This document shows positions 19,670-43,554 of a DNA stretch of 64,000 nucleotides, one piece after another. Source of the stretch: an uncultured virus (IMG/VR IMGVR_UViG_2061766007_000135). Its lineage: Duplodnaviria > Heunggongvirae > Uroviricota > Caudoviricetes. The DNA lies in the IMG/VR virus record IMGVR_UViG_2061766007_000135. One strand, 5' to 3'. The notes beneath the pieces were generated by a model. The model searched no databases and was not told the DNA's origin. It saw only the letters and a program-made list of their open reading frames with translations. Position numbers and translations under genes: made by a program. How positions within the stretch are numbered: position 1 is the stretch's first letter; the number at the start of each line of letters is the position of its first letter.

Positions 19670-19679
19670 GTGTTATTCA

Positions 19680-21947: not shown

Positions 21948-21950
21948 TAT

Positions 21951-22024
21951 GCATCATTAGTGTAATGGTAACATCTCTGCCCTCCAAGCAGATGTTGTGG
22001 GTCCGAGTCCCATATGATGCTCCA
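21951..22024 (+). tRNA. tRNA-Gly(UCC)
   Basis: U73, C33, CCA. Confidence 0.9.
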
Positions 22025-22078
22025 CTACCCCAAGAATAGAGCGGGGTAAATAAAAGGTTAGAAAGAAGAGAAACTAAC

Positions 22079-22396
22079 ATGAAGTATTTTAGTGATGTAA
22101 CCCATAAGATATATGAAACTGTCGAGTAGCTTGAGACTGCTGAGAAGCAGCTAACCGAGCAGAAGAAAGCAAAGGAACTTGCGGAAGCCAAGAAGAAGGA
22201 AGAGCGTGAAGCAAGAGCTAAGGAAGTAGATGCGGCAATTAAAGCAGCTGTTGAAGCGCAGAAAGAAGCAACTGCTAAACTTAATGCTTTCTGTAAGGAT
22301 TATGGTGTTTTTCATACCTCAGTTGAAAATGCTAATGCCCTCTTGGGTAATGTAAATCCTTTCGATAATTTCTTTAGAACCTTTTGGGGTTTCTAA
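22079..22396 (+). CDS. coiled-coil hypothetical protein (one in-frame TAG)
   Basis: MKYFSDVTHKIYETVE[Q]LETAEK...FCKDYGVFH; paralog fragment at 27956-28129. Confidence 0.75.
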
Positions 22397-22425
22397 CCAT
22401 CACGCGGGGTTTGTCCCCGCGATGT

Positions 22426-22499
22426 GCCTCGCTAGTTCAATGGCAGAACAACAGTTTCGTAAACTGTGAATGTAGGTTCGATTCCCACGCAAGGCTCCA
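22426..22499 (+). tRNA. tRNA-Thr(CGU)
   Basis: Cloverleaf, CCA. Confidence 0.88.
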
Positions 22500-22504
22500 G
22501 CCGC

Positions 22505-22581
22505 AGACGTGTCAGCAATGATTTTTTCTTGTGCATTTTAATGAGAGAAGCGGGATCGGCTCCGTGGATATAAACGCGTCT
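22505..22581 (+). ncRNA. stem-CAGCAA RNA copy 1
   Basis: AGACGTGT-CAGCAA...ACGCGTCT. Confidence 0.7.
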
Positions 22582-22614
22582 AGTTTATTTTAAAAATTAG
22601 AATTGGAGTATCGT

Positions 22615-23577
22615 ATGTATAAATTCATTGATCTTTTTGCTGGTATTGGCGGGTTTCGGTTAGCATTTGAAGCTAATACTTGTTAGTGTGTATTCTCAAG
22701 TGAAATTGATAAATTCGCTTAGTAGACTTATGCTGCTAATTTTGGAGACACTCCTGCTGGAGATATAACATAGATTTCTACAGATGATATTCCTGATTTT
22801 GATATTTTAGTAGGCGGTTTCCCTTGTTAGCCATTTTCTTTGGCAGGTATCGGCACTAAAAAGTTTCTTGACCGACCAACAGGTTTTGAAGATAAAACAT
22901 CAGGAACTTTATTTTTTGATATTTGCCGCATACTGCAAGCGAAACAACCTAAAGCCCTCTTATTAGAGAATGTAAAGAATTTAGCTTCACATGATCAAGG
23001 TAAAACTTTCAAAATTATTTTGGAATCACTTTCTGAATTAGGCTATAAAGTTTTTTATCAAGTGATTGATGGAAAATTATATGTGCCGCAACATCGAGAG
23101 CGTATGGTAATAGTAGGATTTAGAAAGGATATAATTGGTGATGAATCATTTGATTTCGCACTTAATCCTCCTGTGGGACGACTTTTGAATGTAGGCGATA
23201 TTCTTGAAAATAACGTGGAAGCTAAATATACCTTAAGTGATACAATGTGGAATTGGATTCAAAACCATACTGCTAAACATTAGGCTCTTGGACACGGTTT
23301 TTCATTTGGATTAATTTCTCCAGAAGGTATCACAAATACTTTAACTGCACGTTATTATAAAGATGGTAAAGAAATATTGGTGCCGCAAGAAGGTATGAAT
23401 CCACGACGTTTAACTCCTCGTGAATGTGCAAGGTTATAGGGATTTCCAGATTCATTTAAGATTGTTTGTTCAAATACTCAAGCTTATAAGCAATTTGGCA
23501 ATTCTGTGGTAGTACCTTTAATGCAAGATGTAGCAAGATTAATTGTTTTAAAGCTAGATGAATTAACTACTATTTGA
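22615..23577 (+). CDS. dcm: DNA (cytosine-5)-methyltransferase, TAG-recoded (7 TAG)
   Basis: [13 protein letters not shown][TAG][22 protein letters not shown][TAG]GFP, QFGNSV. Confidence 0.93.
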
Positions 23578-23615
23578 AAATCATAAAAAAAAATGATATA
23601 ATATATATAGGAAAT

Positions 23616-23708
23616 GGGGAGATACCCAAGTGGTTGAAGGGGGCCGCCTACTAAGCGGTTAGGTGCTAGCGATAGCACGCCTGGGTTCGAATCCCAGTCT
23701 CCCCGCCA
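23616..23708 (+). tRNA. tRNA-Ser(ACU)
   Basis: Long variable arm, G73, loop CT-ACT-AA, CCA. Confidence 0.88.
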
Positions 23709-23776
23709 GTTAATTTGAAAATCTTAAAAAAATTTGATATAATATTCTTACAAGGTTGAGAGAAAGGAAGTGCGAT

Positions 23777-23989
23777 ATGTTCTTTTTCAAAGTTGAGTAT
23801 TGGGATAGTATTGAGAGTGAACCGAAACAGGTCGCTGGTTTGCTAAAGGCCAGATCTTACAAAGAAGCGACTGCGACTCTTGCTGAAGAATATGAAAGCA
23901 TTATTTCCCTGTATCTTGAAGAGTGGGAAAGTGTCCTGACGACTGAAGAAATCCTTGATGGTTTCGCCCGCAACGAACAAGAGACTTAA
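23777..23989 (+). CDS. small acidic hypothetical protein
   Basis: Early promoter and SD. Confidence 0.65.
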   Translation: MFFFKVEYWDSIESEPKQVAGLLKARSYKEATATLAEEYESIISLYLEEWESVLTTEEILDGFARNEQET

Positions 23990-23998
23990 GTCTCATAT

Positions 23999-24085
23999 GC
24001 CCAGGTGATGGAACTGGCAGACGTAGCGGACTTAAAATCCGCTGTCCGAAAGGACGTACGGGTTCAAATCCCGTCCTGGGCACCA
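23999..24085 (+). tRNA. tRNA-Leu(UAA)
   Basis: Class II cloverleaf, CCA. Confidence 0.95.
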
Positions 24086-24176
24086 CCACTCCGCAAGCTA
24101 TTTTCTTACCTTCACCTCCACCTTCTTGTTCATGACAATATACCTCCACCTAGCTTGCGGAGTTTTTTCTTTCTAT

Positions 24177-24261
24177 GGCCGTGTGATGGAATTGGCAGAC
24201 GTGCTTGACTCAAAATCAAGTGTCGCGAGACGTGTGGGTCCGAGTCCCACCATGGCCACCA
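24177..24261 (+). tRNA. tRNA-Leu(CAA)
   Basis: Class II cloverleaf, CCA. Confidence 0.93.
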
Positions 24262-24264
24262 TAT

Positions 24265-24340
24265 GCTCCATTAGCCCAATGGCAGAGGCGATGCGCTTAG
24301 AACGCATAAAGTGTGGGTTCGAATCCCATGTGGAGTACCA
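24265..24340 (+). tRNA. tRNA-Leu(UAG), short variable loop
   Basis: Loop CT-TAG-AA, A73, 5-nt variable loop. Confidence 0.85.
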
Positions 24341-24498
24341 AGGGCACTGCCATCCAGGGAAAAACTCAAGGCGGCGGAGAAGCTGATCCTCCGACAGGTA
24401 GGGACTCTAATTTGTAATACAGTAGCCAGAGATGCTGTATGAGGTTATAGAGGTTAAATGAGGAGCCACTGGGATCTACCTACTAGACAGCTTTTTAT

Positions 24499-24573
24499 GC
24501 CCGGTTAGCTCAACGGATAGAGTACACGGCTACGAACCGTGCGATGTAGGTTCGATTCCTATACCGGGTACCA
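24499..24573 (+). tRNA. tRNA-Arg(ACG)
   Basis: Cloverleaf, CCA. Confidence 0.93.
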
Positions 24574-24645
24574 TCACCTACGCAAGAGCAATGGCTGCAA
24601 TGCAGGAGCCCGTAGGTTTTATAAGGGGCTTATTAAGCCCCACTT

Positions 24646-24731
24646 GGGGAGTTGCTGGAATTGGCAGACAGGCATGCTTGAGGTGCATGTGTCACAATGG
24701 CGTATCGGTTCAAATCCGATACTCCCCACCA
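24646..24731 (+). tRNA. tRNA-Leu(GAG)
   Basis: Class II cloverleaf, CCA. Confidence 0.93.
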
Positions 24732-24736
24732 TTCAA

Positions 24737-24797
24737 GAGATGCGCACAGCAATGATTTTACATTCTTACCATTTATTGAGAACAAGTAAGGCATCTC
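24737..24797 (+). ncRNA. stem-CAGCAA RNA copy 2
   Basis: GAGATGC-GCA-CAGCAA...GCATCTC. Confidence 0.65.
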
Positions 24798-24808
24798 GTA
24801 AATAATAA

Positions 24809-24883
24809 CTCCTGGTAGGCTAACGGATAGACCAAGAGACTTCTAATCTCTATATCGAGGTTCAATTCCTCGTCAGGAGACCA
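24809..24883 (+). tRNA. tRNA-Arg(UCU)
   Basis: Cloverleaf, CCA. Confidence 0.9.
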
Positions 24884-24885
24884 AC

Positions 24886-24994
24886 AGACCGTTTCAGCAA
24901 GTGCCGCAAGGCTTTAGCATTTGTCAAGTGGATAAGACATAACTTTGGAAGAGTTAGAACACGGGTCCGAATCCCGTATGCGATTAAGCGGTCT
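24886..24994 (+). ncRNA. stem-CAGCAA RNA copy 3 with embedded CCA-less tRNA body (GGA loop)
   Basis: AGACCGTT/AGCGGTCT stem; internal D arm, TAACT-TTGGAAG-AGTTA arm, ACGGG-TCCGAAT-CCCGT T arm. Confidence 0.7.
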
Positions 24995-25000
24995 AGATAT

Positions 25001-25075
25001 GTGGTGCGTCGTCCAATGGTAGGACAACAGATTGTGGCTCTGTGAACGTAGGTTCGATTCCTATCGCTCCACCCA
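25001..25075 (+). tRNA. tRNA-His(GUG)
   Basis: G-1/C73, CCA. Confidence 0.9.
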
Positions 25076-25181
25076 ATATTGCCGCCACGGTTAATGGTTC
25101 AAATTCTGCCGGCAAAAGCGTAACAATAGAAGTCCCGCATGGTGAAAGCGTCCCAATAGGATGTTCGGCGGTTAGCTTTAT

Positions 25182-25255
25182 GCGGTTATAGTTTAGGGGT
25201 AAAATTTCTGCTTGCCATGCAGAGGTCACGGGTCCGAATCCCGTTAACCGCTCCA
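25182..25255 (+). tRNA. tRNA-Gly(GCC)
   Basis: Cloverleaf, CCA. Confidence 0.92.
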
Positions 25256-25260
25256 TTTTA

Positions 25261-25375
25261 AAGACCTGTCAGCAATTTTCTTTTGTTTAGTGGAAACCGA
25301 GGTTATCAGTTCGAGTCTGATCGTCCCCACCGTGGGGATGTAGCTCAAGTGGCAGAGCACGTAATAGCGGGTCTT
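25261..25375 (+). ncRNA. stem-CAGCAA RNA copy 4 with circularly permuted tRNA module (YrlA-like)
   Basis: T arm 25305-25321, closed acceptor hairpin CGTCCCCA-CCG-TGGGGATG, D arm TAGCTCAAGTGGCAGAGC, inside AAGACCTGT/GCGGGTCTT stem. Confidence 0.8.
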
Positions 25376-25403
25376 GTATTTATATTTTACAAGGAGAAAA
25401 ATT

Positions 25404-25943
25404 ATGAGCGACGCGAGACTCAAGATCCTCCCGCCTTGGACGATTGTAATACGAAAGTTTGAGGCCCTATTTGATGGCGATCCACTGATTGCTTGTAATT
25501 GCAATTTCAGTGGCGCTGAACCTTCTATCGTGCTTGCTTGTGGCAATGGCGATAAGACTGCTGCTCTCCAGCAGATTCTCCCCGACGAGATTGACTTTGG
25601 TAATGTAAAGCTCAAGGTCATGGTTGATGGCACTCCTAGCAACAAGGCATTTACTAGTAAGGTAGAGCTATTTGAAACTGCCTTTAAGGGCAATCCTGCA
25701 TTTGCATATGCGGTATGTCCTGCTGAAGAAGGCTATATGTGGATTGGCACAACCTATGTGGTATTCAAGAATTGTGTTGTGCAGTTTGCTGCGGACAATT
25801 TGAATGATTGCCACGGTATCATTAGTACTCTCTATCAGGATATTGCTGAGGAACTTCTTAGAGGTCCTGCAACTCAGGGTGTATTTTACAACACTGATGT
25901 TGAGCGTGCTAATCTCGGTAAGCCACTGGGTGAATGGCCGTAA
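25404..25943 (+). CDS. hypothetical phage protein
   Basis: SD AAGGAG, 179 aa. Confidence 0.75.
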   Translation: MSDARLKILPPWTIVIRKFEALFDGDPLIACNCNFSGAEPSIVLACGNGDKTAALQQILPDEIDFGNVKLKVMVDGTPSNKAFTSKVELFETAFKGNPAFAYAVCPAEEGYMWIGTTYVVFKNCVVQFAADNLNDCHGIISTLYQDIAEELLRGPATQGVFYNTDVERANLGKPLGEWP

Positions 25944-26230
25944 TAATTAAAGCGCCGTGATTGTCAGTCCAGTACCAGTCCGGAAGGTGTGGGCGCATTA
26001 CAAATTGAAATCGACGTAAATCTCATCCCTTAATAGAGATAATCGTTGAAACCTGGCTAGGGACTGATTAAGCCAGGTTTTGTTTTATAAATAAGTAGTT
26101 GCGCGAAAGCATCAGCTGGCACGCGCGCACAGGGTCGTACCCGCGAAAGCAAATTTAGATTTACAATTTTTAATTCTAAATAGGGCATATGCAGTAAAAA
26201 AAAATGAATCCCGAAAAGGAGAGAACATCT

Positions 26231-26734
26231 ATGAAGAAGATTTTGGCTATTTTGTTAGCAATTATGTTGGCATTTTGCTTGATCCCTAATGCTACAGCCA
26301 CAGGAGGCTCAGGTTCAGGTACAAGTGGTTTAAGTTCAGGTACAAGCGGCAGTACTCCATCCATTACAGTGCATGATCTCTTGTATTTTACTCCGAACTA
26401 TACTTGGGAAGAAATTGTGCCAACTTGGGAAGAAGTGGAATTTGCTCGCCCAATGTTAAGTTATTTCTTAGGTGAGCCTTATGATATGGTTGAAGCTCTC
26501 AGCTTAAATGTCGAATATAGATATGGTATTGTAAGTTTGAACGCTCCTACTATTTTCCTCTCAGATAATTATCTATTTCTTTTAGTGAATGCCACGAATA
26601 CTTATTATATGACACCAATTTTATTTAACGATAAGGAAACAAAAACTGGTTGTGCATTGTTAGATTTTACCAATGTTGAACCAGGTATTTATAATGCTTA
26701 TTTGTTTAATTCAGATAATACGGTTCCACAGTGA
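26231..26734 (+). CDS. secreted/surface protein with signal peptide and Gly/Ser linker
   Basis: MKKILAILLAIMLAFCLIPNATA-TGGSGSGTSG. Confidence 0.75.
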   Translation: MKKILAILLAIMLAFCLIPNATATGGSGSGTSGLSSGTSGSTPSITVHDLLYFTPNYTWEEIVPTWEEVEFARPMLSYFLGEPYDMVEALSLNVEYRYGIVSLNAPTIFLSDNYLFLLVNATNTYYMTPILFNDKETKTGCALLDFTNVEPGIYNAYLFNSDNTVPQ

Positions 26735-26813
26735 GCCGTATTTTTTTATATCAAAATTAATTAATTGATCTACTTAATTTTTGAAATATATAGATGAAAG
26801 GAGTTGTTTTTTT

Positions 26814-27845
26814 ATGGCACAATTATTATCTATTGCCACATTCGTTAAAGAATTAGAAGCAGCTTTAAATCGTAAAGATGGTTATATTATGGGTTCAAGA
26901 GGACAAAATCCAAGAACAGGTTCCTTAGATTTAAGTGTCACTAAAGAATCATCTTCTTGGAAAACTACTGGTTGGTATTATACTCAGTATAAAGATCGTA
27001 AAGAATATACTGCCGAGCAAGAGCAAAAGGCTTTATATTGGCGTGAACATGCTACAAGAGTATGGGATTGCAATGGAATGGCAGAGGGCATATATGAACT
27101 TCATACTGGTATAAATATCAATGCTCGTGCTCGTAATAATTATAATGAATGGTGTAATCCAAAAGGCACAGGTATAGTCCCTGCATCTATGCGCAAACCT
27201 GGTGTTGCAGTATTTTGGGGTCCAAGCGCTTCTGGTATTACACATGTAGCTTATCTTTGGAAGCCAGTTGTAGAAAATAAACCTGAAGGTGACTGGTATT
27301 TAATTGAAGCATAGGGTGTCTTAAAAGGTGTAGTAAGTTCTAAATTATTGTCACGTAAGCCTGGCTATTGGGGCTATATGACTAAATATTTTGATTATGA
27401 AAATGCTATTCCAGAGCCATATCCAGCAAATTCAATTCATATTGGTATGGAAGGCGCCGAAGTTAAAAAATTACAATAGGACTTAATGGCAGCTGGTGAG
27501 AAATTGCCTAAATATAAAGACGATGGCGATTTTGGACAAGAAACCTTAGCTGCGGTTAAGAGTTTTTAGAAGAAACATTCATTACCAGAAACTGGCATTG
27601 TAGATGATGCTACTAAAGAAATGTTGGCTAAAGTTTTAAACGCAGAAGTAACAAAAATGGTAGAAGTTACTGGTGGTCGCGTGAATGTGCGCAAAGGCCC
27701 ATCTGTTGCATATACTGCAATTGGTGTTGCTAAGCAAGGTGAAAAGTATTCTTATAATAATGAAACATATAATGAATGGTATTGTATTGTTTATAAAGGC
27801 CAAAAGGCTTGGATTTCAGGTAAATACAGTAAACTTTTGACTTAA
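26814..27845 (+). CDS. endolysin: NlpC/P60- or CHAP-like domain + PG-binding domain + SH3b, TAG-recoded (3 TAG)
   Basis: WDCNG...THVA; VKKLQ[TAG]DL..DGDFGQETLAAVKSF[TAG]KKH..TGIVD; VNVRKGPS..WISGKY. Confidence 0.88.
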
Positions 27846-27896
27846 ATAAAAAAATTTGTTATAATATATACACAAGATGAAAAAAGTCTTGTGTTT

Positions 27897-27945
27897 AGCC
27901 CCTTAGTTCAACGGCAGAACACCGGTCTCTAAAACCGTTATATCC
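27897..27945 (+). tRNA. amber suppressor tRNA(CUA), copy 1, cut by N gap
   Basis: AGCCCCTTAGTTCAACGGCAGAACACCGGT-CT-CTA-AA-ACCGT. Confidence 0.75.
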
Positions 27946-27955
27946 NNNNNNNNNN

Positions 27956-28129
27956 GCTCTTGCCGCAGAAGTAGATACTGCTCGTAAAGCATATCTAGAA
28001 GCACAGAAAACCTATCGTGAAAAGCTAGAAGGTTTCTGTAGTAAGTATGGTACCTATCACTATACAGTTGAAAATGGTGAAGAAATTCCTTCTCTCTTTG
28101 ATTTCTTTGGTAATCTTCTAAGATTCTAA
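27956..28129 (+). CDS. 3' part of paralog of 22079-22396 (5' end lost in N gap)
   Basis: AEVDTARKAYLEAQK..KLEGFCSKYGTYH. Confidence 0.65.
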   Translation, partial: ALAAEVDTARKAYLEAQKTYREKLEGFCSKYGTYHYTVENGEEIPSLFDFFGNLLRF

Positions 28130-28169
28130 GAAAGGCTTATGGACTGAGCCTATCAGTCCTTTCTTTTAT

Positions 28170-28263
28170 AGCCCCTTAGTTCAACGGCTAGAACACCGGT
28201 CTCTAAAACCGTTATATCCCTCTGAAGGAGGTAGTCTGGGTTCAAATCCCAGAGGGGCTGCCA
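28170..28263 (+). tRNA. amber suppressor tRNA(CUA), copy 2, long variable region
   Basis: Full cloverleaf, CUA anticodon, A1-U72, G73, CCA. Confidence 0.9.
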
Positions 28264-28269
28264 TAATAA

Positions 28270-28342
28270 AAGACGCTTCTATCAGCAATTAACCTTACAG
28301 GATGGGTTAATATCCTGTGCCATTTAGAATATATGGCGTCTT
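28270..28342 (+). ncRNA. stem-CAGCAA RNA copy 5
   Basis: AAGACGC...CAGCAA...GCGTCTT. Confidence 0.65.
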
Positions 28343-28403
28343 GTTTGATTTTTCTTAAAAAATATGATATTATTTATATATAAGGTTGAGGGAGGAAAGT
28401 CAA

Positions 28404-28745
28404 ATGGCAAAATGGTATGTTTATGTTGATGATGAACGCAAAATTGATCCCGCGACCAATACTCAGTATATTTGGTCATGTTATGTACATGGCCTTTCAG
28501 TTTGTTTGACTTGCCGCGATTATTGGGCGACAATTAATACTCTGAAAGAATTGGCTGAGCACAATGACCAAGTGGTGATTGATCTTGATCATGATCTTGG
28601 TCCTGGTAAGAATGGATATGATATTTGCAAATGGATTTTGGAAAATCATTATCCGATTGTCGCGTTTCATATCCACTCTATGAATCCGGTCGGAGTGTTT
28701 AATATGCGGCAATTACTTAAACGGTATGGGTATAAAGAGTTTTAA
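28404..28745 (+). CDS. cyclic-phosphate-processing receiver-like domain protein
   Basis: VYVDDER, DLDHDLG, NGYDICKWI, IHSMNPVG. Confidence 0.8.
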   Translation: MAKWYVYVDDERKIDPATNTQYIWSCYVHGLSVCLTCRDYWATINTLKELAEHNDQVVIDLDHDLGPGKNGYDICKWILENHYPIVAFHIHSMNPVGVFNMRQLLKRYGYKEF

Positions 28746-28832
28746 CTTGAAAATTTCAAAAATTTTTGATATAATATATATAGAAGATGAGGAAAGGCGA
28801 TGATTCCATTGTTCTAAATCTTCTGTAAATTT

Positions 28833-28894
28833 TAGGCACTATCAGCAATCATTCATAAGTCATATTTGGTAGTATATGGGTGAAAAAGTGCCTA
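28833..28894 (+). ncRNA. stem-CAGCAA RNA copy 6
   Basis: TAGGCACT-AT-CAGCAA...AGTGCCTA. Confidence 0.7.
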
Positions 28895-28900
28895 GTTTAT

Positions 28901-28977
28901 CGGGGTGTAGCGCAGTTTGGTAGCGCACCTGATTTGGGATCAGGGGGTCGCAGGTTCGAATCCTGTCGCCCCGACCA
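28901..28977 (+). tRNA. tRNA-Pro(UGG)
   Basis: Cloverleaf, CCA. Confidence 0.95.
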
Positions 28978-28980
28978 TAT

Positions 28981-29091
28981 TAGACAATTACAGCAAATAA
29001 GATTTAATCTTAATGTTATGGGTTCGACTCCCATTAGTTGTGCATTACAAGTATAGCTCAGTTGGTAGAGCGTAAGAATATGAATTGTCTA
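28981..29091 (+). ncRNA. stem-CAGCAA RNA copy 7 with circularly permuted tRNA module (YrlA-like)
   Basis: TAGACAATT/AATTGTCTA stem; T arm 29018-29034, closed acceptor hairpin, D arm TAGCTCAGTTGGTAGAGC 29054-29071. Confidence 0.8.
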
Positions 29092-29120
29092 GGAATAATA
29101 ATATAAAGGTGGTTGAGACA

Positions 29121-29375
29121 ATGGAGCGTGTTCGCATGCACCTTCGTCTTGTGACCAGTGCGGACGCCGCAGAATTTGTTAGTATTCTAAATCACGATGG
29201 ATCTACAGTACGTTGGATGCTTGAAGATGCCAGTGGTAATTGTCGTGTTAATGCTCGCAGTCTAATCGGTGTTCTTTATTTTTCCACTGAGCACAATGAC
29301 GAAACCTATTTGGTAAATGCTACTGATGGTAGTGGCGATTTCCCAAAGGGGTTAGATCAGTTTAGGGTACTGTAA
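29121..29375 (+). CDS. HPr-like protein
   Basis: AAEFV...RVNARSLIGVL (HPr Ser46 region). Confidence 0.65.
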   Translation: MERVRMHLRLVTSADAAEFVSILNHDGSTVRWMLEDASGNCRVNARSLIGVLYFSTEHNDETYLVNATDGSGDFPKGLDQFRVL

Positions 29376-29386
29376 AACCCTATTAT

Positions 29387-29460
29387 AGGTGACTAGCGTA
29401 ATGGTAGCGCAAACGGCTCTGACCCGTTATGTCGGGGTTCAATTCCCTGGTCACCTGCCA
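29387..29460 (+). tRNA. tRNA-Gln(CUG)
   Basis: Cloverleaf, G73, CCA. Confidence 0.9.
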
Positions 29461-29464
29461 ATAT

Positions 29465-29538
29465 TGGGGTATAGCCAAATGGTAAGGCACGGGACTTTGA
29501 CTCCCGCATTGCAGGTTCGATCCCTGCTACCCCAGCCA
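29465..29538 (+). tRNA. tRNA-Gln(UUG)
   Basis: U1-A72, CCA. Confidence 0.95.
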
Positions 29539-29546
29539 TATTATAT

Positions 29547-30083
29547 GCCGTCGTGGCTCAATGGTAGAGCAGCTGATTTGTTAGCCAAATTTATATCTAT
29601 GATTGAATTAGCTCCTAAACAAAAAGGTAACTTAACTGAATTACAATGCTTAACTGCATTTTATGAATTAGGTTATCAGTGTAGTATCCCCTATGGTGAG
29701 AACTCACGGTATGATTTGATTGCAGATATAGACGGTAAGCTAATACGAGTACAATGTAAAACCTCACGAGAGGTTGAACCTGGAGTAATTGAATTTCCTT
29801 GTAGAAGTTCTCGTAGTAATACTCAATCTAATTTGCAACGTCGTTATACCGCAAATGAAATTGATTACTTTTGCACTTTTTGGAATGGACAATGTTATTT
29901 AGTACCAATTTCAGAATGTTCAGTAAGTAAAAAATTACGATTTGTTCCACCTAAAAATGGGCAGAAAGTAGGAATTACTTATGCAAAAGATTATGAACTT
30001 CAAGGACAACTTGAAAAATTGAAAGGTTAAACATTGGCTAACAAATCAGCAGGTTGTAGGTTCGACTCCTATCGGCGGCTCCA
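29547..30083 (+). tRNA. tRNA-Thr(UGU) interrupted by a ~462-nt insertion (exons about 29547-29581 and 30044-30083)
   Basis: Joined exons give a canonical cloverleaf with GCTGA-TT-TGT-AA-TCAGC and TCCA end. Confidence 0.85.
29599..30030 (+). CDS. PD-(D/E)XK homing endonuclease (group I intron-associated, I-Ssp6803I-like family)
   Basis: KGNLTE...SIPYGENSRYDLIAD..LIRVQCKT...YTANEIDYF..YLVP. Confidence 0.85.
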   Translation: MIELAPKQKGNLTELQCLTAFYELGYQCSIPYGENSRYDLIADIDGKLIRVQCKTSREVEPGVIEFPCRSSRSNTQSNLQRRYTANEIDYFCTFWNGQCYLVPISECSVSKKLRFVPPKNGQKVGITYAKDYELQGQLEKLKG

Positions 30084-30115
30084 ACGTGAAGCGATAACAC
30101 CATAATAACACTTTT

Positions 30116-30221
30116 AAGATGACTTTCCGGCCTACTTCAGCAATGCTTAGCCAGGATGGTGTAAAAGGTTAGCATACCCGTAAGGGAGATTCCGGTTCGA
30201 CTCCGGATCAATAGTCATCTT
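30116..30221 (+). ncRNA. stem-CAGCAA RNA copy 8 with D-arm/T-arm (elbow-like) module
   Basis: AAGATGACT/AGTCATCTT stem; GGTGTAAAAGGTTAGCAT, CCC-GTAA-GGG, TCCGG-TTCGACT-CCGGA. Confidence 0.7.
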
Positions 30222-30225
30222 GTAT

Positions 30226-30310
30226 GGGAGCGTGGCCGAGTGGCTTAAGGCGGCGGTCTTGAAAACCGTTGACCCGAGAGGGTCCGTGGGTTCAAATCCT
30301 ACCGCTCCCG
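30226..30310 (+). tRNA. tRNA-Ser(UGA), CCA in N gap
   Basis: Class II cloverleaf. Confidence 0.92.
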
Positions 30311-30347
30311 NNNNNNNNNNNNNNNNNNNNNNNNNNNNTACAATAAA

Positions 30348-30443
30348 GGGCTTGCAGCAATTAACATATAAAAAAGAAATTAATTTATTTTATTGTAATT
30401 GCAAAATAAATTTTATGACATATAAATTCAGGAGTTTAAGCCC
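30348..30443 (+). ncRNA. stem-CAGCAA RNA copy 9
   Basis: GGGCTT-G-CAGCAA...AAGCCC with AU-rich interior. Confidence 0.6.
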
Positions 30444-32233: not shown

Positions 32234-33748
32234 ATGAATACTTTGCTGAATGGTATGAAGGCTGCTTCTAACTACACTTTGACCGAGAATGGTGGCATCA
32301 CTCATAAGACTACCAATAGTGATCTGTTGGATATGTTCGCTATGGGCGCCGCTATGCGCAATCGCTCTGACGAGGATGTTATCCTCATGTTCCAGAAGGC
32401 GTTTGCAGAGAACGCTGAACTGGCTATGAAGATGCTCTTCTATATCCGTGACGTGCGCGGCGGCCAGGGTGAGCGTCGTTTCTTCCGCGTTGTAATGAAG
32501 TGGGCAGCTGGTAACAAGGCTACCCGTGAGTCCGTGCGCAAGAATATTCAGTATATCCCTGAGTTCGGTCGTTGGGATGATCTGTATACTTTGTGCGATA
32601 CTGCACTGGAACAGGATATGTTTGCCTTCATGAAGAGCCAGTTGGTTCTGGATTTGGAGTGCAAGACTCCTTCTCTGTTGGCTAAGTGGATGAAGTCTGA
32701 GAATGCAAGTTCTCAGGAAACTGCTCGTTTGGCCGAGAAGACTCGTTGTTATCTGCATATGACCCATAAGGAGTATCGTAAGATGCTCTCTATCATGCGT
32801 GCGCGCATTAACGTTCTTGAGGTTTTGATGTCCGCTAATCGTTGGGATGAAATCGAATTCGATAAGATCCCTTCTAAGGCTGGTCTGATCTATAAGAATG
32901 CTTTTGCCCGTCGTGACATCATTAAGGCAAAGTATGAACAGTTCGCTAAGGATGAGAATACTAAGGTAAATGCCGGTGCTCTATATCCTTACGAAGTGGT
33001 AGAAAAGGCTATCCAGCTTATGGGTGGCTATTATCGCGGTGGTCGTGTGGCCCTCGATAATACTGACCGCCTGATGATCAATAAGTACTGGGAGAATTTG
33101 ACTGACTTCTTCGCGGGAGCCAAGTTGAATGCTCTGTGTATGATTGATACCTCTGGCTCTATGAGCGGTACTCCTATCAATGTCGCTACGGCACTTGGTA
33201 TGTACTGCGCAGAGCGTAATCAGGGTCCTTGGGCCAACCACTATATCAGCTTCAGCTCTCGTCCTCAGTTGATCGAGACCTCTGGTGTCGACTTCTGTGA
33301 CAAGGTACAGCGTATTGTGGATACCAACCTATGCGAGAACACCAATATCGAAGCCGCCTTCGATATGGTGCTGAACACCTGTCTGCGCAATCATCTGTCT
33401 CAGAGCGCTCTGCCTGAGTATATGATTGTTATCAGTGATATGGAATTCGATCAGGCTACCGGCAATTACTGGCGTCGTAGCGGTTCTAGTATGTGCACCG
33501 CAAATGCTGAGACCGTTATGGAGACCATTGAGCGTAAGTTCAATGCCGCAGGCTATCGTATGCCTAAGCTGATTTATTGGAATGTGGATGCTCGTCAGGC
33601 CAACATTCCTATGATCGGTAATCACTATGTAAGCTATGTGTCTGGCTTCAGTCCTTCTATCTTCAAGAGCATCTTGACCGGCAAGTCTGGTTGGGACTTG
33701 ATGCTGGAAGCGATTGATTGTGAGCGCTATGCTTGCATTCACGCCTAA
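32234..33748 (+). CDS. DUF2828-family helical + vWA protein (Ro60/TROVE-like architecture)
   Basis: TENG, FYIRDVRGGQGER, FGRWDDL, LAKW, MIDAS DTSGSM, ISDMEFD, IYWNV, VSGFSPSIF. Confidence 0.85.
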   Translation: MNTLLNGMKAASNYTLTENGGITHKTTNSDLLDMFAMGAAMRNRSDEDVILMFQKAFAENAELAMKMLFYIRDVRGGQGERRFFRVVMKWAAGNKATRESVRKNIQYIPEFGRWDDLYTLCDTALEQDMFAFMKSQLVLDLECKTPSLLAKWMKSENASSQETARLAEKTRCYLHMTHKEYRKMLSIMRARINVLEVLMSANRWDEIEFDKIPSKAGLIYKNAFARRDIIKAKYEQFAKDENTKVNAGALYPYEVVEKAIQLMGGYYRGGRVALDNTDRLMINKYWENLTDFFAGAKLNALCMIDTSGSMSGTPINVATALGMYCAERNQGPWANHYISFSSRPQLIETSGVDFCDKVQRIVDTNLCENTNIEAAFDMVLNTCLRNHLSQSALPEYMIVISDMEFDQATGNYWRRSGSSMCTANAETVMETIERKFNAAGYRMPKLIYWNVDARQANIPMIGNHYVSYVSGFSPSIFKSILTGKSGWDLMLEAIDCERYACIHA

Positions 33749-37234: not shown

Positions 37235-38644
37235 ATGGCATATGTTGGATATGTAGTCAAAGTTGAGCATCTGCGCAAACATTTGAATGCTGATCGTTTG
37301 CAAATTGCTACCTTTTTTGGTAATGATACCATTGTTGGTATGAATACCAATTATGGCGATATGGGCATTTATTTTCCTGTAGATGGTCAGCTTTCTGAGC
37401 GTTATTGCGCAGTTAATGATCTTGTGCGTCGTAAGGATGAAAATGGCAAGCAGTGTGGTGGCTATTTGAGTCCTGAGAAGCGCAATATTAAAGCTTTGAA
37501 GCTTCGTGGTGAAAAATCTGATGGTCTATTTATGCCTTTGACTTCTTTGGCAGATTTTTGTAAAATTTCTGATTTGAAAGTCGGAGATACCATTAGTGTC
37601 ATTAATGGTGAAGAGATTTGCCGCAAATATATTCCTAATGTAAATATTGCAGTTCATACCAAAGGTGCTGAGACTCCACGCAAGGCCAAGGCTAATATTG
37701 CTCCTACTTTTTATGAGCATGTTGATACTGCGCAGTTGGCTTATAATCTTAATGCTTTTAAGCCTGGGGATATAATTCAGTTAACTCTTAAGATGCACGG
37801 CACCTCTGGACGTACTGGTTATCTTCCTCTTGTACATATTAAAAAGACTTGGCTTGATAAACTGCTTCATCGTGCAGGCAAAGAATATAAAGAATATGGC
37901 TATATAACTGGCACCCGTCGTGTAGTTTTGGATGACACTCATAAGGGTGGCTTCTATGAATCTGATGATTTCCGTCACGCAATGGCTGCAAAGTTTGAAG
38001 GTAAGCTTCATAAGGGTGAAGTCGTTTATTATGAAATCGTTGGATTCCAAGGCCCTAATGGTGCTCCTATTATGGGACAGGTTCAGAACTCTAAGGTAAA
38101 GGATCCTGAGTTCACTAAGCAGTATGGCGCAGTTACTACTTTCGCATATGGCTGCGATCCTGCCGGCACCTATGAAATGCAGACTAATGAAGCTGGCGAT
38201 ATGGTAATGCCTCCTTGCTGCGAAGTATATGTATATCGTATGACTATGGTCAATGAGGATGGCGACGTTACTGAATATTCTCCTGCTCAGATTAAAGAAC
38301 GTTGTGAGCAGATGGGTGTTCATACCGTTATGGAATTTGAAACCTTCATTATTCCTAAGAAAGAACCCGATTCTCCATTCTCACCACGTGAACCTGAATA
38401 TTATCACGATGTTAACCCTGGCGAATATGTTACTCGTAGAGTAGAAAGATACTTTGATGGACCTGACCCTATTGGTCAGATTCATGTGCGCGAAGGTGTT
38501 GTTATACGTATTCTTAACCGTACTAATTTCGCAGTATATAAGCATAAGAATTTTAATTTTAAGGTGCTAGAAGGCATTGCCAAAGATGAAGCTACCGCAC
38601 CTGATATAGAGGAGGCTCAGGATGTAGGAGAAATGGTGGTTTAA
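37235..38644 (+). CDS. ATP-dependent RNA ligase (Rnl2/DRB0094-like) with N-terminal tRNA-binding OB-like domain
   Basis: KHLNADRL; motif I TLKMHGTS; YYEIVG; REGVVIR; YKHKNFNF. Confidence 0.85.
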   Translation: MAYVGYVVKVEHLRKHLNADRLQIATFFGNDTIVGMNTNYGDMGIYFPVDGQLSERYCAVNDLVRRKDENGKQCGGYLSPEKRNIKALKLRGEKSDGLFMPLTSLADFCKISDLKVGDTISVINGEEICRKYIPNVNIAVHTKGAETPRKAKANIAPTFYEHVDTAQLAYNLNAFKPGDIIQLTLKMHGTSGRTGYLPLVHIKKTWLDKLLHRAGKEYKEYGYITGTRRVVLDDTHKGGFYESDDFRHAMAAKFEGKLHKGEVVYYEIVGFQGPNGAPIMGQVQNSKVKDPEFTKQYGAVTTFAYGCDPAGTYEMQTNEAGDMVMPPCCEVYVYRMTMVNEDGDVTEYSPAQIKERCEQMGVHTVMEFETFIIPKKEPDSPFSPREPEYYHDVNPGEYVTRRVERYFDGPDPIGQIHVREGVVIRILNRTNFAVYKHKNFNFKVLEGIAKDEATAPDIEEAQDVGEMVV

Positions 38645-42464: not shown

Positions 42465-42947
42465 ATGCCTACTTTGTATATGATGATTGGTTCTCCTGGT
42501 TCTGGCAAGTCTACTTGGGCCCATAAGTTCCAGCAGAATCGTTTGAATACTATGTATATTTCTCGTGATGAGATTCGTATGTCTATTTTGGCAGATAATG
42601 AGCAGTATTTTTCACATGAGGATGACGTATATGAACACTTCGTAGAGGCTATTGTAAATGGATTGGTGCATAACTATGATGTAATTGCTGACGCTACTCA
42701 CCTTTCTCGTAATTCACGTATTAAGTTGGTTAAGTCTTTGCAGGCCCATGCTCTTTTAGCTGAGCAGTATGAAATTATTTTTATACATATGCTAACTCCA
42801 CTCGATGAATGTGTGCGGCGTGATGCTTTGCGCCAGGGACGTGCGCATGTAACTGACACAGTAATTCGTCGTATGTGGTATCAGGCTCAAGCACCGCAGA
42901 TACACGAATTTCCTAATGTTAAAGGAGTATGGAGTATTTATGAGTGA
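42465..42947 (+). CDS. P-loop polynucleotide-kinase-like protein (AAA_33)
   Basis: GSPGSGKST, SRDEIR, IADATH, RDALR. Confidence 0.85.
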   Translation: MPTLYMMIGSPGSGKSTWAHKFQQNRLNTMYISRDEIRMSILADNEQYFSHEDDVYEHFVEAIVNGLVHNYDVIADATHLSRNSRIKLVKSLQAHALLAEQYEIIFIHMLTPLDECVRRDALRQGRAHVTDTVIRRMWYQAQAPQIHEFPNVKGVWSIYE

Positions 42948-43554
42948 AATTTGGTTTACTAGTGATACCCATTTTGGGCATCAACAAGAATTTCTTTATG
43001 GCCCTCGACAATGTTCTACCCTACAAGAAATGGAAGAAAAGATTGTCGAACATTGGAATCAATTCGTGCGGCCAACTGATATTGTTTATCATTTGGGTGA
43101 TATTAGTATGGGAGTACCGCAAAACTTTGAATTTATTAACACGCTAAATATACTATCACGTCTTAATGGACAAATTCATTGGATACGGGGTAATCATGAT
43201 AGCGATAATAAGGTTCAAACAATTTGTAAAGCATTTCATAATATTACTTTACCTATTTGGTCTGACCTATTGGTAGTAAGTAAACATAAATTTTTTCTAT
43301 GCCATTATCCTACACTCACCGCTAATTTTGATGATAAACATTTCAGTCAACATGTGATTAGTTTACACGGTCATACACATCAAACTAAGAATTGGCTATT
43401 TGCTGATAATCCTTTTGTCTATCACGTTGGTCTTGATTCTCATGATTGTTATCCAGTCCATATTGAAACTGTCTTGGGTGATATTCGCAGTCGTTGGAAC
43501 TCTTTGGGCATGTTAAATATTACTCCTACCGGTATTTATAATGAATATCCATAA
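42940..43554 (+). CDS. metallophosphoesterase
   Basis: FTSDTHFGH, HLGD, RGNHD, HYP, HGHTH. Confidence 0.9.
   Translation: MSEIWFTSDTHFGHQQEFLYGPRQCSTLQEMEEKIVEHWNQFVRPTDIVYHLGDISMGVPQNFEFINTLNILSRLNGQIHWIRGNHDSDNKVQTICKAFHNITLPIWSDLLVVSKHKFFLCHYPTLTANFDDKHFSQHVISLHGHTHQTKNWLFADNPFVYHVGLDSHDCYPVHIETVLGDIRSRWNSLGMLNITPTGIYNEYP

What the first reader, a model, noticed from the sequence alone, without database searches (positions are those of the whole stretch)
29547..30083. tRNA-Thr(UGU) split by a ribozyme-less homing endonuclease insertion sealed in a perfect 17-bp helix
Seen: a ~462-nt insert lies immediately 3' of the TGT anticodon. It is almost wholly a 143-aa PD-(D/E)XK ORF (17 nt before ATG, 13 nt after TAA), leaving no room for a group I or II core outside the ORF. 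GCTGATTTGTTAGCCAA (29572-29588) and TTGGCTAACAAATCAGC (30034-30050) are exact reverse complements and extend the anticodon stem; there is no bulge-helix-bulge. Both exons are intact and no other Thr(UGU) gene is in the window. Established: this nuclease family is known from group I introns in bacterial tRNA genes. Inference: a minimal protein-spliced tRNA intron (for example dsRNA cleavage plus the phage RNA ligase/kinase), or a mobile element that uses the tRNA scaffold to stabilise its mRNA.
Basis: partly seen in the sequence, partly recalled or inferred. Interest (0 to 1): 0.88.

Follow-up and report, generated by a model that had tools for sequence, protein, structure and literature searches.

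The report
Ribozyme-less endonuclease insert splitting phage tRNA
A phage threonine-tRNA gene is cut in two, right after its anticodon, by a mobile DNA-cutting-enzyme gene that has no self-splicing RNA but keeps a conserved RNA hairpin, and the same design recurs in many gut and rumen phages, so these tRNAs may be spliced by proteins, which is not known in bacteria or their viruses.

Summary
Window 29547-30083 is a tRNA-Thr(UGU) gene split between nucleotides 36 and 37 by a 462-nt insert. A related phage carries the same 75-nt gene uninterrupted, which fixes the boundaries. The insert is almost entirely a 143-aa PDDEXK_5 (I-Ssp6803I-family) homing endonuclease gene. The 17-bp perfect helix is real.

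It is not a one-off. By a strict filter, 102 of 160 fetched loci from phage and gut or rumen metagenome contigs have the same design. The tRNAs hit include Thr, Lys, Asn, Arg, Gly, Pro and Gln.

In every case the last three intron bases pair with the anticodon. The helix is selected as RNA: G·U 68 against A·C 5, with many compensatory changes. It ends at a conserved internal loop, followed by a second helix that encloses the ORF.

No group I, group II or bulge-helix-bulge features were found, and no conserved structure or synonymous-site constraint inside the ORF.

Whether the tRNA is spliced remains open. Exon intactness is uninformative because the element hops between alleles, and the RNA-run contigs were ambiguous.

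- **Best reading (about 0.45):** a protein-dependent tRNA intron, cut by an unidentified endonuclease and sealed by an RNA ligase.
- **Main rival (about 0.35):** an unspliced selfish gene that uses the tRNA as an RNA scaffold.

I found no published description.

The parts
29547..29581 (+). 5' exon of tRNA-Thr(UGU): positions 1-36, ending in the anticodon TGT (29579-29581)
   Evidence: Read. By my reading it is identical to L007 1501-1535. Acceptor, D and anticodon stems pair in 50 of 50 aligned relatives at 99.5-100% of cells.
29582..30043 (+). 462-nt intervening sequence inserted between tRNA positions 36 and 37
   Evidence: The empty allele L007 fixes both boundaries. ARAGORN intron mode gives a 462-nt intron. 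The joint 29581->30044, 'skips 462', is seen in one RNA-run contig, but this is not attributable to splicing.
29572..29588 (+). P1, 5' strand: anticodon stem 27-31, loop 32-33, anticodon 34-36, and intron bases +1 to +7
   Evidence: 17-nt perfect inverted repeat. Covariation and G·U bias in relatives. Recovered de novo by RNAalifold.
30034..30050 (+). P1, 3' strand: intron bases -10 to -4 (TTGGCTA), the anti-anticodon ACA (30041-30043), then exon positions 37-43
   Evidence: The motif CATTG...GGTT occurs once in the window against 0 expected.
29589..29593 (+). Conserved unpaired A (29589), then the P2 5' strand TTTA (29590-29593)
   Evidence: In alignment A2, column 45 is unpaired. Columns 46-50 pair with 538-543, with changes on both sides in 4 of these 5 pairs.
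30028..30033 (+). P2 3' strand TAAA (30028-31, containing the stop codon TAA), then the conserved unpaired CA (30032-33)
   Evidence: For example, pair 46-543 is C-G in 28 sequences and U-A in 21.
29599..30030 (+). 143-aa PD-(D/E)XK homing endonuclease gene of the I-Ssp6803I family
   Evidence: Pfam PF11645, E 2.8e-30. PDB 2OST, E 4.6e-7. D39, Q52 and K54 are invariant in 27 homologues. 494 homologues at E<=1e-3.
30044..30083 (+). 3' exon of tRNA-Thr(UGU): positions 37-76 including the encoded CCA
   Evidence: Read. By my reading it is identical to L007 1536-1575. The T stem pairs in 96.8% of cells in relatives.
37235..38644 (+). Phage RNA ligase, a candidate sealing enzyme only; its link to the intron is inferred
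   Evidence: phrog_968 'RNA ligase', E 1.7e-66. Homologues in 5 of 5 related phage records, including the intron-less one.
42465..43554 (+). Polynucleotide kinase (42465-42947) and metallophosphoesterase (42916-43554), candidate RNA end-healing enzymes; their link to the intron is inferred
   Evidence: Pfam AAA_33 and Metallophos_2. phrog_505 'polynucleotide kinase' and phrog_547 'phosphoesterase'.

Best explanation
This is a mobile, ribozyme-less tRNA intron. A homing endonuclease gene of the I-Ssp6803I family has inserted at DNA level into the anticodon loop, between positions 36 and 37, of the phage's only tRNA-Thr(UGU) gene. It spreads by cutting uninterrupted alleles.

In the transcript, the last three intron bases pair with the anticodon and the next seven pair with the first seven intron bases. 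The anticodon stem therefore continues as a 17-bp helix (P1). P1 ends at a conserved internal loop and a short second helix (P2) that closes off the ORF.

P1 is centred on the middle anticodon base. The two splice sites lie symmetrically about that centre, staggered by 3 bp.

Inferred, not shown: a protein endonuclease, probably a symmetric dimer, reads this helix and cuts both strands. An RNA ligase then joins the halves into a working tRNA. Candidates for the cut are the intron's own nuclease, whose DNA target has the same length and centre, or a host enzyme. Candidates for the sealing are the phage ligase at 37235-38644, helped by the kinase and phosphoesterase, or host RtcB.
For: **Mobility is shown.**
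- A precise empty site with identical exons exists in L007.
- PDDEXK_5 genes in five related phage records lie only at split tRNA genes (5 copies). There is none in the intron-less record.
- Near-identical ORFs sit in divergent tRNA alleles.

**The family is shown.**
- 102 of 160 fetched loci pass a strict filter for the design, giving 79 distinct junction pairs.
- 13 of 13 inserts in tRNAs other than Thr(UGU) are PF11645.
- The register is 36|37 throughout: U33 in 78 of 79 and A37 in 76 of 79.

**The RNA structure is shown.**
- Over the ten intron-involving P1 pairs, G·U is 68 against A·C 5.
- On 50 Thr genes, 94.9% of cells pair against 75.1% in shuffles (0 of 500 shuffles reach the observed value). 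Slid registers give 29-46%.
- P1 extension pairs at 92.2% and P2 at 86.4%, with changes on both sides in 6 of 7 P2 pairs.
- RNAalifold recovers P1 and P2 unaided.
- The anti-anticodon changes with the anticodon across tRNA types, sometimes through wobble pairs only, for example UGG with CUG or UUG.

**No ribozyme was found.**
- No Rfam intron hit in the window or in 0 of 20 relatives.
- Synonymous sites vary freely: mean ratio 0.88, with no long suppressed tract.
- No conserved pairing inside the ORF.
- The base before the 5' splice site is U, C or G and the last intron base is A, C or G, depending on the tRNA.

**The tRNA appears to matter (suggestive).**
- Exon loop bases stay tRNA-like: U33-A37 is invariant, and C32·A38 is tolerated in 19 of 50, while neighbouring intron pairs covary.
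- 0 of 79 inserts carry a nested tRNA, and 0 of 79 have a same-anticodon tRNA in their flanks.
- In the 40 kb fetched around the array of each of four related phages and in the window, Thr(UGU) occurs once, intact only in the intron-less phage. One phage's only tRNA-Asn found is also split.

**Sealing enzymes are present.** RNA ligase, polynucleotide kinase and phosphoesterase are encoded in the window.
Against: - No direct evidence of splicing. The joined form in RNA-run contigs cannot be assigned to this gene. Uninterrupted alleles exist as DNA, the uninterrupted 21-mer is in at least 117 viral contigs, and the joined contig has a different upstream sequence from the unspliced one.
- Unspliced contigs of 440-969 nt are present in all 4 RNA runs.
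- Exon intactness is uninformative. Exon and ORF distances barely correlate (Spearman 0.10; 157 of 2000 permutations reach it), so exons are constantly refreshed by new invasions.
- No splicing endonuclease is identified. EndA (PF01974) was found in 0 of 5 and RNase III (PF14622) in 0 of 5 related phage records.
- PD-(D/E)XK homing enzymes are DNA nucleases, and cutting an A-form RNA helix would be unprecedented for this family.
- The RNA ligase is also present in the intron-less phage, so it is not intron-specific.
- An RNA-level helix is equally expected if the tRNA only serves as a scaffold.
Confidence: 0.45

Rival explanations
1. An unspliced selfish gene. The endonuclease gene spreads by homing into tRNA genes and destroys them. 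The RNA helix is selected for the element's own benefit: it lets the two tRNA halves fold into a tRNA-shaped scaffold. That scaffold is trimmed by RNase P and RNase Z out of the tRNA-array transcript, and it protects and presents the endonuclease mRNA. The phage simply loses that tRNA and relies on the host's.
For: - The element is highly mobile and exons are refreshed by new invasions, so intact exons need no tRNA function.
- Uninterrupted alleles are far more common: at least 117 viral contigs carry the uninterrupted 21-mer.
- Unspliced contigs are present in 4 of 4 RNA runs.
- No splicing nuclease was found.
- All ORFs are intact and under selection. The only in-frame stops are 19 TAG codons in TAG-recoding phages.
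- Start and stop codons sit at the base of P2.
- Earlier notes of this scan describe relatives that carry a replacement tRNA, which implies no splicing there (unverified).
Against: - A scaffold does not need the anticodon itself to be paired, nor a helix of fixed length ending in a conserved internal loop.
- No replacement tRNA accompanies the insert: 0 of 79 nested and 0 of 79 in the flanks.
- The insert occupies the only Thr(UGU) gene found in the window and in the 40 kb fetched around each related phage's array of 33-37 tRNAs. In one phage it also occupies the only tRNA-Asn found.
- As recalled, homing endonuclease genes inside functional genes are almost always paired with a splicing element.
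Confidence: 0.35
2. An RNA mimic of the homing site. P1 copies the length (17 bp), the centre (position 35) and the left ten base pairs of the DNA target (tRNA positions 27-43). The endonuclease therefore binds its own transcript. The purpose is to repress its own translation or to mask the anticodon, not to splice.
For: - The geometry is read from the sequence.
- I-Ssp6803I recognises a 23-bp pseudo-palindromic site as a tetramer (PMC3384342, passages).
- Some members add a NUMOD1 DNA-binding module, a typical homing enzyme feature.
Against: - The right half of P1 (TAGCCAA/TTGGCTA) is unrelated in sequence to the right half of the DNA site.
- No test of RNA binding is possible with these tools.
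- This reading does not explain what becomes of the tRNA.
Confidence: 0.1
3. A new small self-splicing or self-cleaving RNA, built from P1, the internal loop, P2 and perhaps the tRNA body.
For: - Three unpaired bases (A | CA) are conserved at a fixed distance from the splice sites.
- The precursor folds more stably than shuffles (z = -5.3).
Against: - Both splice sites lie inside a continuous Watson-Crick helix, 7 and 10 bp from the only conserved unpaired bases.
- There is no conserved structure or synonymous constraint in the ORF.
- There is no Rfam ribozyme hit in the insert.
- The bases flanking the splice sites vary with the tRNA.
Confidence: 0.05

Closest known systems
I-Ssp6803I and the group I intron of the Synechocystis tRNA-fMet gene
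   Same: - Same nuclease family (PF11645; PDB 2OST hit).
- Same kind of target: the pseudo-palindromic anticodon stem-loop DNA of a tRNA gene (PMC3384342 passages).
- Same size of ORF: 150 codons in a 655-nt intron (PMC1995217 table).
   Different: - That intron has about 200 nt of group I ribozyme around the ORF and self-splices. Here only 30 nt lie outside the ORF and no group I feature is met.
- The host is a cyanobacterial chromosome there and phages here.
- I could not verify the insertion position and cut geometry of I-Ssp6803I, because the primary papers are not held.
Mobile archaeal bulge-helix-bulge introns carrying homing endonuclease genes in rRNA and tRNA genes (recalled; mentioned in PMC3984707 passages)
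   Same: - A ribozyme-less intron in a structural RNA gene that carries a homing endonuclease ORF.
- Removal there depends on a symmetric protein endonuclease plus an RNA ligase.
- The splice sites are symmetric about a helix dyad.
   Different: - There are no bulges here: the splice sites sit in a continuous helix, 3 bp apart instead of 4 bp between two 3-nt bulges.
- The position is 36/37, not 37/38.
- The nuclease is PD-(D/E)XK, not LAGLIDADG.
- The setting is the bacterial/phage world, where no EndA-type enzyme is known. None was found in 0 of 5 related phages.
Intervening sequences of bacterial 23S rRNA, excised by RNase III (recalled; named in PMC3984707 passage)
   Same: An ORF-bearing or ORF-less insert replaces a hairpin loop of a structural RNA. 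Its complementary ends extend the native helix, and a host double-strand RNase removes it.
   Different: - rRNA pieces are not rejoined and still work. A tRNA nicked in its anticodon loop would need ligation.
- RNase III leaves 2-nt overhangs, whereas the geometry here requires 3.
Phage T4 tRNA repair (Pnkp plus Rnl1 resealing an anticodon loop cut by PrrC; recalled)
   Same: A phage-encoded kinase/phosphatase and RNA ligase can reseal a tRNA broken in the anticodon loop. Homologous functions are encoded in the window.
   Different: That pathway is repair after a host attack, not removal of an insert. No link between these enzymes and the intron is shown here.
'Split-and-replace' endonuclease cassettes in phage tRNA genes
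   Same: A PD-(D/E)XK or HNH endonuclease gene sits in the anticodon loop of a phage tRNA gene without a ribozyme.
   Different: Those cassettes bring a spare tRNA. Here 0 of 79 inserts contain a tRNA and 0 of 79 have a same-anticodon tRNA nearby.

Membership tests
Group I intron | Match to the Rfam group I covariance model | tested here: not met
   No hit at gathering score in the window. No hit at E<=10 in 29400-30250. No hit at E<=0.01 in 0 of 20 related loci.
Group I intron | U before the 5' splice site and G as the last intron base | tested here: not met
   In the window the intron ends in A (30043). Across the family the base before the 5' site is U, C or G, and the last intron base is the complement of position 34.
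Group I intron | Conserved catalytic core helices (P3-P8) within the intron | tested here: not met
   Only 30 nt lie outside the ORF. RNAalifold on 50 sequences finds no conserved helices inside the ORF beyond two 2-bp hairpins. Synonymous sites are not constrained.
Group II intron | Rfam group II models; conserved 5' GUGYG | tested here: not met
   No Rfam hit. The intron starts TAGCC, TTCTC, TCATC or CAATC in different members.
Archaeal/eukaryal protein-spliced tRNA intron (bulge-helix-bulge) | Two 3-nt bulges separated by a 4-bp helix at the splice sites | tested here: not met
   P1 is a perfect 17-bp helix in the window. Mismatches in relatives are scattered and do not form bulges at the splice sites.
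Archaeal/eukaryal protein-spliced tRNA intron (bulge-helix-bulge) | An EndA/Sen-type splicing endonuclease is available | tested here: inconclusive
   PF01974 was found in 0 of 5 related phage records, while the control rang in 4 archaea. The host genome is unknown.
Archaeal/eukaryal protein-spliced tRNA intron (bulge-helix-bulge) | The intron is removed by proteins and the exons are ligated | not testable with these tools
   RNA-run contigs show both the joined and unjoined forms but cannot assign the joined form to this gene.
PDDEXK_5 / I-Ssp6803I homing endonucleases | Pfam PF11645 above the curated cut-off, with conserved D...QxK catalytic residues | tested here: met
   105.6 bits against a cut-off of 26.1. 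D39, Q52 and K54 are invariant in 27 sequences and aligned to 2OST.
PDDEXK_5 / I-Ssp6803I homing endonucleases | Presence/absence polymorphism at a precise site in an otherwise identical target gene | tested here: met
   L007 has the uninterrupted gene with identical exons. The same ORF lineage occurs in divergent tRNA alleles.
PDDEXK_5 / I-Ssp6803I homing endonucleases | Cleaves the uninterrupted target DNA | not testable with these tools
   This needs an enzyme assay.
RNase III-excised intervening sequence | Complementary insert termini extend a native helix of the structural RNA | tested here: met
   P1 extends the anticodon stem.
RNase III-excised intervening sequence | Cut by RNase III with 2-nt 3' overhangs, and the pieces are not rejoined | not testable with these tools
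   The geometry needed for a 7-nt anticodon loop is a 3-nt stagger (read). No phage RNase III was found in 0 of 5 records.
Split-and-replace endonuclease cassette | The insert carries, or is accompanied by, a substitute tRNA for the same codon | tested here: not met
   0 of 79 introns contain a tRNA. 0 of 79 have a same-anticodon tRNA in the held flanks. None is present in the window or in the 40 kb fetched around each related phage's array.

The most novel reading that the evidence does not exclude
[quoted passage not shown] This would be the first protein-dependent tRNA splicing in the bacterial world. The boldest form is that the intron's own PD-(D/E)XK homing endonuclease doubles as the splicing nuclease. 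It would cut an RNA helix that copies the length and symmetry centre of its DNA homing site, leaving 3'-OH and 5'-phosphate ends that the phage RNA ligase seals directly.
Probability: 0.4. Interest if true: 0.95.

Novelty: new variant of a known kind. Interest (0 to 1): 0.8.

Why it matters
A 2014 review states that all phage introns observed to that date lie in protein-coding genes, despite the many phage tRNA genes (PMC3984707, passage). As recalled, known bacterial tRNA introns are group I ribozymes.

Here a homing endonuclease occupies tRNA anticodon loops in many phages with no ribozyme. It still keeps a precisely built RNA helix that pairs the anticodon.

If the tRNA is spliced, bacteria or their phages have a protein-based tRNA splicing route like that of archaea and eukaryotes. 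That would bear on how such splicing arose and on what phage RNA ligases are for.

If it is not spliced, this is a clear case of a selfish gene that uses a tRNA as an expression scaffold and freely destroys phage tRNA genes.

There is also a practical consequence. Standard tRNA finders miss these genes, so phage tRNA sets are under-counted. The endonuclease genes are listed as 'stand-alone' in at least one published survey (80 PDDEXK_5 genes in Jug phages; PMC12880540 passages; its supplementary tables were not seen).

Tried and rejected
- **Whole-genome tools.** No genome is held for this window.
- **GenBank phage collection.** blastn of 29300-30400 found only tRNA-sized matches and no relative of the insert.
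- **RNA evidence.** One run search and one read-laying run. RNA runs held only 0.08-0.13 of the sampled words. They contained unspliced contigs (4 of 4 runs), one contig with the exact joint 29581->30044, and loose ends showing the joined form. The joined contig has a different upstream sequence from the unspliced one, and intron-less alleles are common, so I count this as no evidence either way.
- **Matching loose ends.** Six loose-end strings matched none of my loci.
- **I-Ssp6803I cut geometry.** The primary papers PMC1864971 and PMC3008403 are not held, and the reviews read in passages do not give it. I therefore do not use my recollection of its overhang.
- **Exon intactness as proof of splicing.** Rejected after the weak exon-ORF distance correlation.
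- **Degenerate ORFs with a retained helix.** These would have favoured splicing, but none exist. The apparent breaks are all TAG codons in TAG-recoding phages.
- **Ligase co-occurrence.** Uninformative: the RNA ligase is in 5 of 5 related phages, including the intron-less one.
- **RNase P or RNase Z as splice-site nucleases.** Considered and not pursued. The sites lie in a closed helix, and the 3-nt tail does not fit RNase Z.
- **Literature.** Six full-text searches found no description of a ribozyme-less endonuclease insert in a phage tRNA gene (one search failed on syntax). All papers were read as passages only, except search listings.
Full report
**1.

Window 29547-30083 reads as a tRNA-Thr gene in two pieces.
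- The 5' exon is 29547-29581: acceptor GCCGTCG, D arm, anticodon stem GCTGA, loop TT, anticodon TGT.
- The 3' exon is 30044-30083: AA, TCAGC, AGGTT, T arm, CGGCGGC, T, CCA.
- Between them lie 462 nt (29582-30043).
- The ORF is 29599-30030 (143 aa). It leaves 17 nt before the ATG and 13 nt after the TAA.
- The repeat finder gives a single inverted repeat in the region: 29572-29588 / 30034-30050, 17 nt, 100% complementary.
- The ORF is Pfam PDDEXK_5 (E 2.8e-30). Its best solved relative is 2OST, deposited as 'Putative endonuclease', which I take to be I-Ssp6803I (recalled) (E 4.6e-7).

Default ARAGORN and Rfam do not call this gene. The 37 called tRNA and tmRNA genes include Thr(GGU) and Thr(CGU) but no other Thr(UGU).

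**2. The boundaries are fixed by an empty site**

A 35-base search with the 5' exon found one IMG/VR contig. Its locus L007 carries the gene uninterrupted at 1501-1575. By my reading it is identical to the joined exons, with the loop TTTGTAA. Prefix and suffix matching allow only one insertion point, between T36 and A37. This is the classic signature of a mobile insertion.

**3. It is one member of a large family**

- The protein has 494 homologues at E<=1e-3 in the 5.8-billion-protein set. Many are 161 aa long. In the window an ATG at 29545 would add exactly such an 18-aa extension through the tRNA 5' exon, which I take to be the reason (inferred).
- I fetched 80 metagenome loci and 80 IMG/VR loci with a 27-sequence profile.
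- I scanned them with ARAGORN in intron mode and re-parsed every call from the tRNA geometry.
- By a strict filter (at least 2 of 3 anticodon pairs and at least 5 of 7 extension pairs), 60 of 80 metagenome loci and 42 of 80 viral loci have the design. That gives 79 distinct junction pairs.
- The loci that fail include contig ends, variant architectures, one allele with a stem mismatch (L013), and distant free-standing homologues such as L005 and L006.
- Of the 79, 56 are Thr(UGU). My parse reads the rest as Lys(UUU) 7, and Thr(AGU), Arg(UCU), Pro(UGG), Gln(UUG) and GCU two each. Gly(GCC) in L017 and Asn(GUU) (L116; G003) were read by eye. A few single calls were not checked by eye.
- 13 of 13 inserts tested from tRNAs other than Thr(UGU) are PF11645, one with an added NUMOD1 module.
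- The run search suggests a bovine and other animal gut habitat.

**4. Anatomy of the RNA**

In all family members the insert lies between positions 36 and 37 (U33 in 78 of 79, A37 in 76 of 79). Three features recur:
- The last three intron bases pair with the anticodon.
- The preceding seven pair with the first seven intron bases.
- The helix then stops at a conserved internal loop: one A on the 5' side and CA on the 3' side. A second helix (P2) follows, whose 3' strand holds or abuts the stop codon. The start codon follows a short A-rich leader.

In the window:
- P1 is 29572-29588 / 30034-30050.
- The loop is A29589 | C30032 A30033.
- P2 is 29590-29593 / 30028-30031.

P1 has 17 bp, and its middle pair is G35 with the central base of the anti-anticodon. 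The 5' splice site lies 1.5 bp to one side of that pair and the 3' splice site 1.5 bp to the other, a 3-bp stagger. The helix runs 8 bp to each side. That is the same length and the same centre as the DNA site, tRNA positions 27-43, which is a 7-bp palindrome around TGT. These points are read directly from the sequence.

**5. The helix is selected as RNA**

- Over the ten intron-involving pairs of P1 in 79 junction pairs, G·U occurs 68 times and A·C 5 times. A DNA-level inverted repeat would decay into both equally.
- On an alignment of 50 Thr(UGU) split genes (A2), my structure pairs in 94.9% of cells against 75.1% in shuffles (0 of 500 shuffles reach it). Slid registers give 29-46%.
- The P1 extension pairs at 92.2%, with five pairs changed on both sides. 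P2 pairs at 86.4%, with six of seven pairs changed on both sides. For example, pair 46-543 is C-G in 28 sequences and U-A in 21.
- RNAalifold, given no structure, returns the cloverleaf, P1 and P2, and nothing else beyond two 2-bp hairpins.
- Across tRNA types the anti-anticodon follows the anticodon, in some cases by wobble pairs only (UGG with CUG or UUG).
- These sequences are related, so the counts overstate the number of independent events.

**6. It is not a known self-splicing intron**

- No Rfam intron model hits the window at gathering score, at E<=10, or in 0 of 20 relatives at E<=0.01.
- Synonymous-site entropy along the ORF averages 0.88 of expectation. Dips occur only at the very start (the leader) and around codons 78-89. 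There is no tract of the size a catalytic core would need.
- The base before the 5' splice site (U, C or G) and the last intron base (A, C or G) vary with the tRNA. That is incompatible with the group I rule of U at the 5' site and terminal G.
- There is no bulge-helix-bulge.

**7. Is the tRNA made?**

Arguments for:
- Exon loop bases keep tRNA character instead of optimising the helix. U33-A37 is invariant in 50 of 50, and C32·A38 is present in 19 of 50, while adjacent intron pairs covary.
- No insert carries a spare tRNA (0 of 79), and none has a same-anticodon neighbour (0 of 79), although the flanks hold 3.6 tRNAs on average.
- I searched five related phage records and scanned 40 kb around the tRNA array of each. 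In four of them (33-37 tRNAs found) and in the window, Thr(UGU) occurs once at most as an ordinary gene. It is intact only in the intron-less record. In the fifth (G004) only 9 ordinary tRNAs lay in the part fetched.
- One of these phages also has the only tRNA-Asn found in that stretch split by a second family member.

Arguments against:
- The exon and ORF distances barely correlate (Spearman 0.10; 157 of 2000 permutations reach it). ORFs less than 10% apart sit in exons up to 35% apart. The element therefore hops between alleles, and intact exons may simply be fresh.
- In four metatranscriptome runs the unspliced form is present in all four as contigs.
- The joined form is also present: one contig with the exact joint, plus loose ends in three runs. 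It has a different upstream context from the unspliced contig.
- The uninterrupted 21-mer is in at least 117 viral contigs.

I treat the RNA data as undecided.

**8. Who could do it?**

- The window encodes an RNA ligase (37235-38644, phrog_968), a polynucleotide kinase and a metallophosphoesterase (42465-43554), and a cyclic-phosphate-processing receiver domain protein (28386-28745).
- It also encodes a 504-aa protein of phrog_850, labelled 'RNA-binding protein' (32234-33748), with Pfam DUF2828/DUF7788, which I recall as Ro60-like.
- The ligase homologue is in 5 of 5 related phages, including the intron-less one. It is available but not intron-specific.
- No EndA-type enzyme and no RNase III were found in those five records.
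- The only intron-specific protein is the PD-(D/E)XK nuclease itself. A metal-dependent cut would leave ends that an ATP-dependent ligase can seal directly (established chemistry; its application here is inferred).

**9. Verdict**

The structure and its breadth are solid. The mechanism is not. My estimates are:
- protein-dependent splicing, about 0.45;
- an unspliced selfish gene using the tRNA as a scaffold, about 0.35;
- an RNA mimic of the homing site for autoregulation, about 0.10;
- a new small ribozyme, about 0.05.

Six full-text searches found no description of such elements. A 2014 review says phage introns known then were all in protein-coding genes. A 2026 survey lists 80 PDDEXK_5 genes of Jug phages as stand-alone and does not mention tRNA in its main text (supplements not seen). 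One of my split tRNA-Lys loci (L134) lies in a 402-kb contig of that size class.

Earlier notes of this scan describe endonuclease cassettes in phage tRNA genes that bring a spare tRNA. I tested that idea here and it does not apply.

Noticed in passing
window 22603-23577; 28170-28263: Under the standard code the C5 cytosine methylase gene is a fragment. With TAG read as Gln it is a full 324-aa ORF with 7 in-frame TAG codons. A suppressor tRNA(CUA) gene lies at 28170-28263. Of 25 family-matched genes, 17 end in TAA, 7 in TGA and 1 in TAG. The phage probably reads TAG as sense in some genes.
   Followed up: partly
L001, L052, L064, L067, L081, L084, L086, L088, L098, L103, L112 (intron ORFs): The only in-frame stops inside the endonuclease ORFs of relatives are TAG (19 TAG, 0 TAA or TGA). 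By eye most sit where the window protein has Gln and a few where it has Glu. The endonuclease genes have adapted to TAG-recoding phages.
   Followed up: partly
window 30115-30222: A tRNA-like RNA lies directly after the split tRNA. It has a 10-bp closing stem (AAGATGACTT/AAGTCATCTT) and a T-arm-like hairpin (CCGGTTCGACTCCGG). A similar element follows the gene in L007. In L088 the same position gives a sub-threshold Rfam YrlA (Y RNA-like) hit (36 bits, E 3e-4). A phrog_850 'RNA-binding protein' with Pfam DUF2828/DUF7788 lies at 32234-33748; I recall DUF2828 as Ro60-like.
   Followed up: partly
window 13742-30311: A tRNA array of 36 ordinary tRNA genes plus a tmRNA (14442-14781, 82.9 bits). It includes unusual A34 anticodons, Ala(AGC) and Ser(ACU).
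   Followed up: no
L017 1148-1687 and 1792-2330; record G003: Two family members can sit in one phage. In L017, neighbouring tRNA-Thr(UGU) and tRNA-Gly(GCC) genes are each split. In G003, tRNA-Thr(UGU) and the only tRNA-Asn(GUU) found in the 40 kb scanned are both split.
   Followed up: yes
L013 1150-1685: A split tRNA-Thr whose anticodon stem has a C31·U39 mismatch. The 5' half looks like one allele type and the 3' half like the window's type. This is possibly a co-conversion scar of homing.
   Followed up: no
L088 290-868: A full-length ROOL RNA (312.5 bits) lies in the tRNA array just upstream of a split tRNA-Thr.
   Followed up: no
L003 5953-6019: A type-P1 twister ribozyme match below the gathering score (58.2 against 67.2 bits, E 1.6e-10) lies in the tRNA region of a related phage.
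   Followed up: no
window 51931-52602 and 54826-55479: Two ORFs with GIY-YIG nuclease domains flank the DNA ligase gene (52631-53776), among replication genes. They are probably free-standing homing endonucleases.
   Followed up: no
window 27897-28263; G001 and G002 arrays: ARAGORN intron mode also proposes 170-300-nt 'introns' in other tRNA genes, including the CUA suppressor. At least some are merges of neighbouring or duplicated genes. The window shows a near-duplicate 5' part of the suppressor tRNA at 27897.
   Followed up: no
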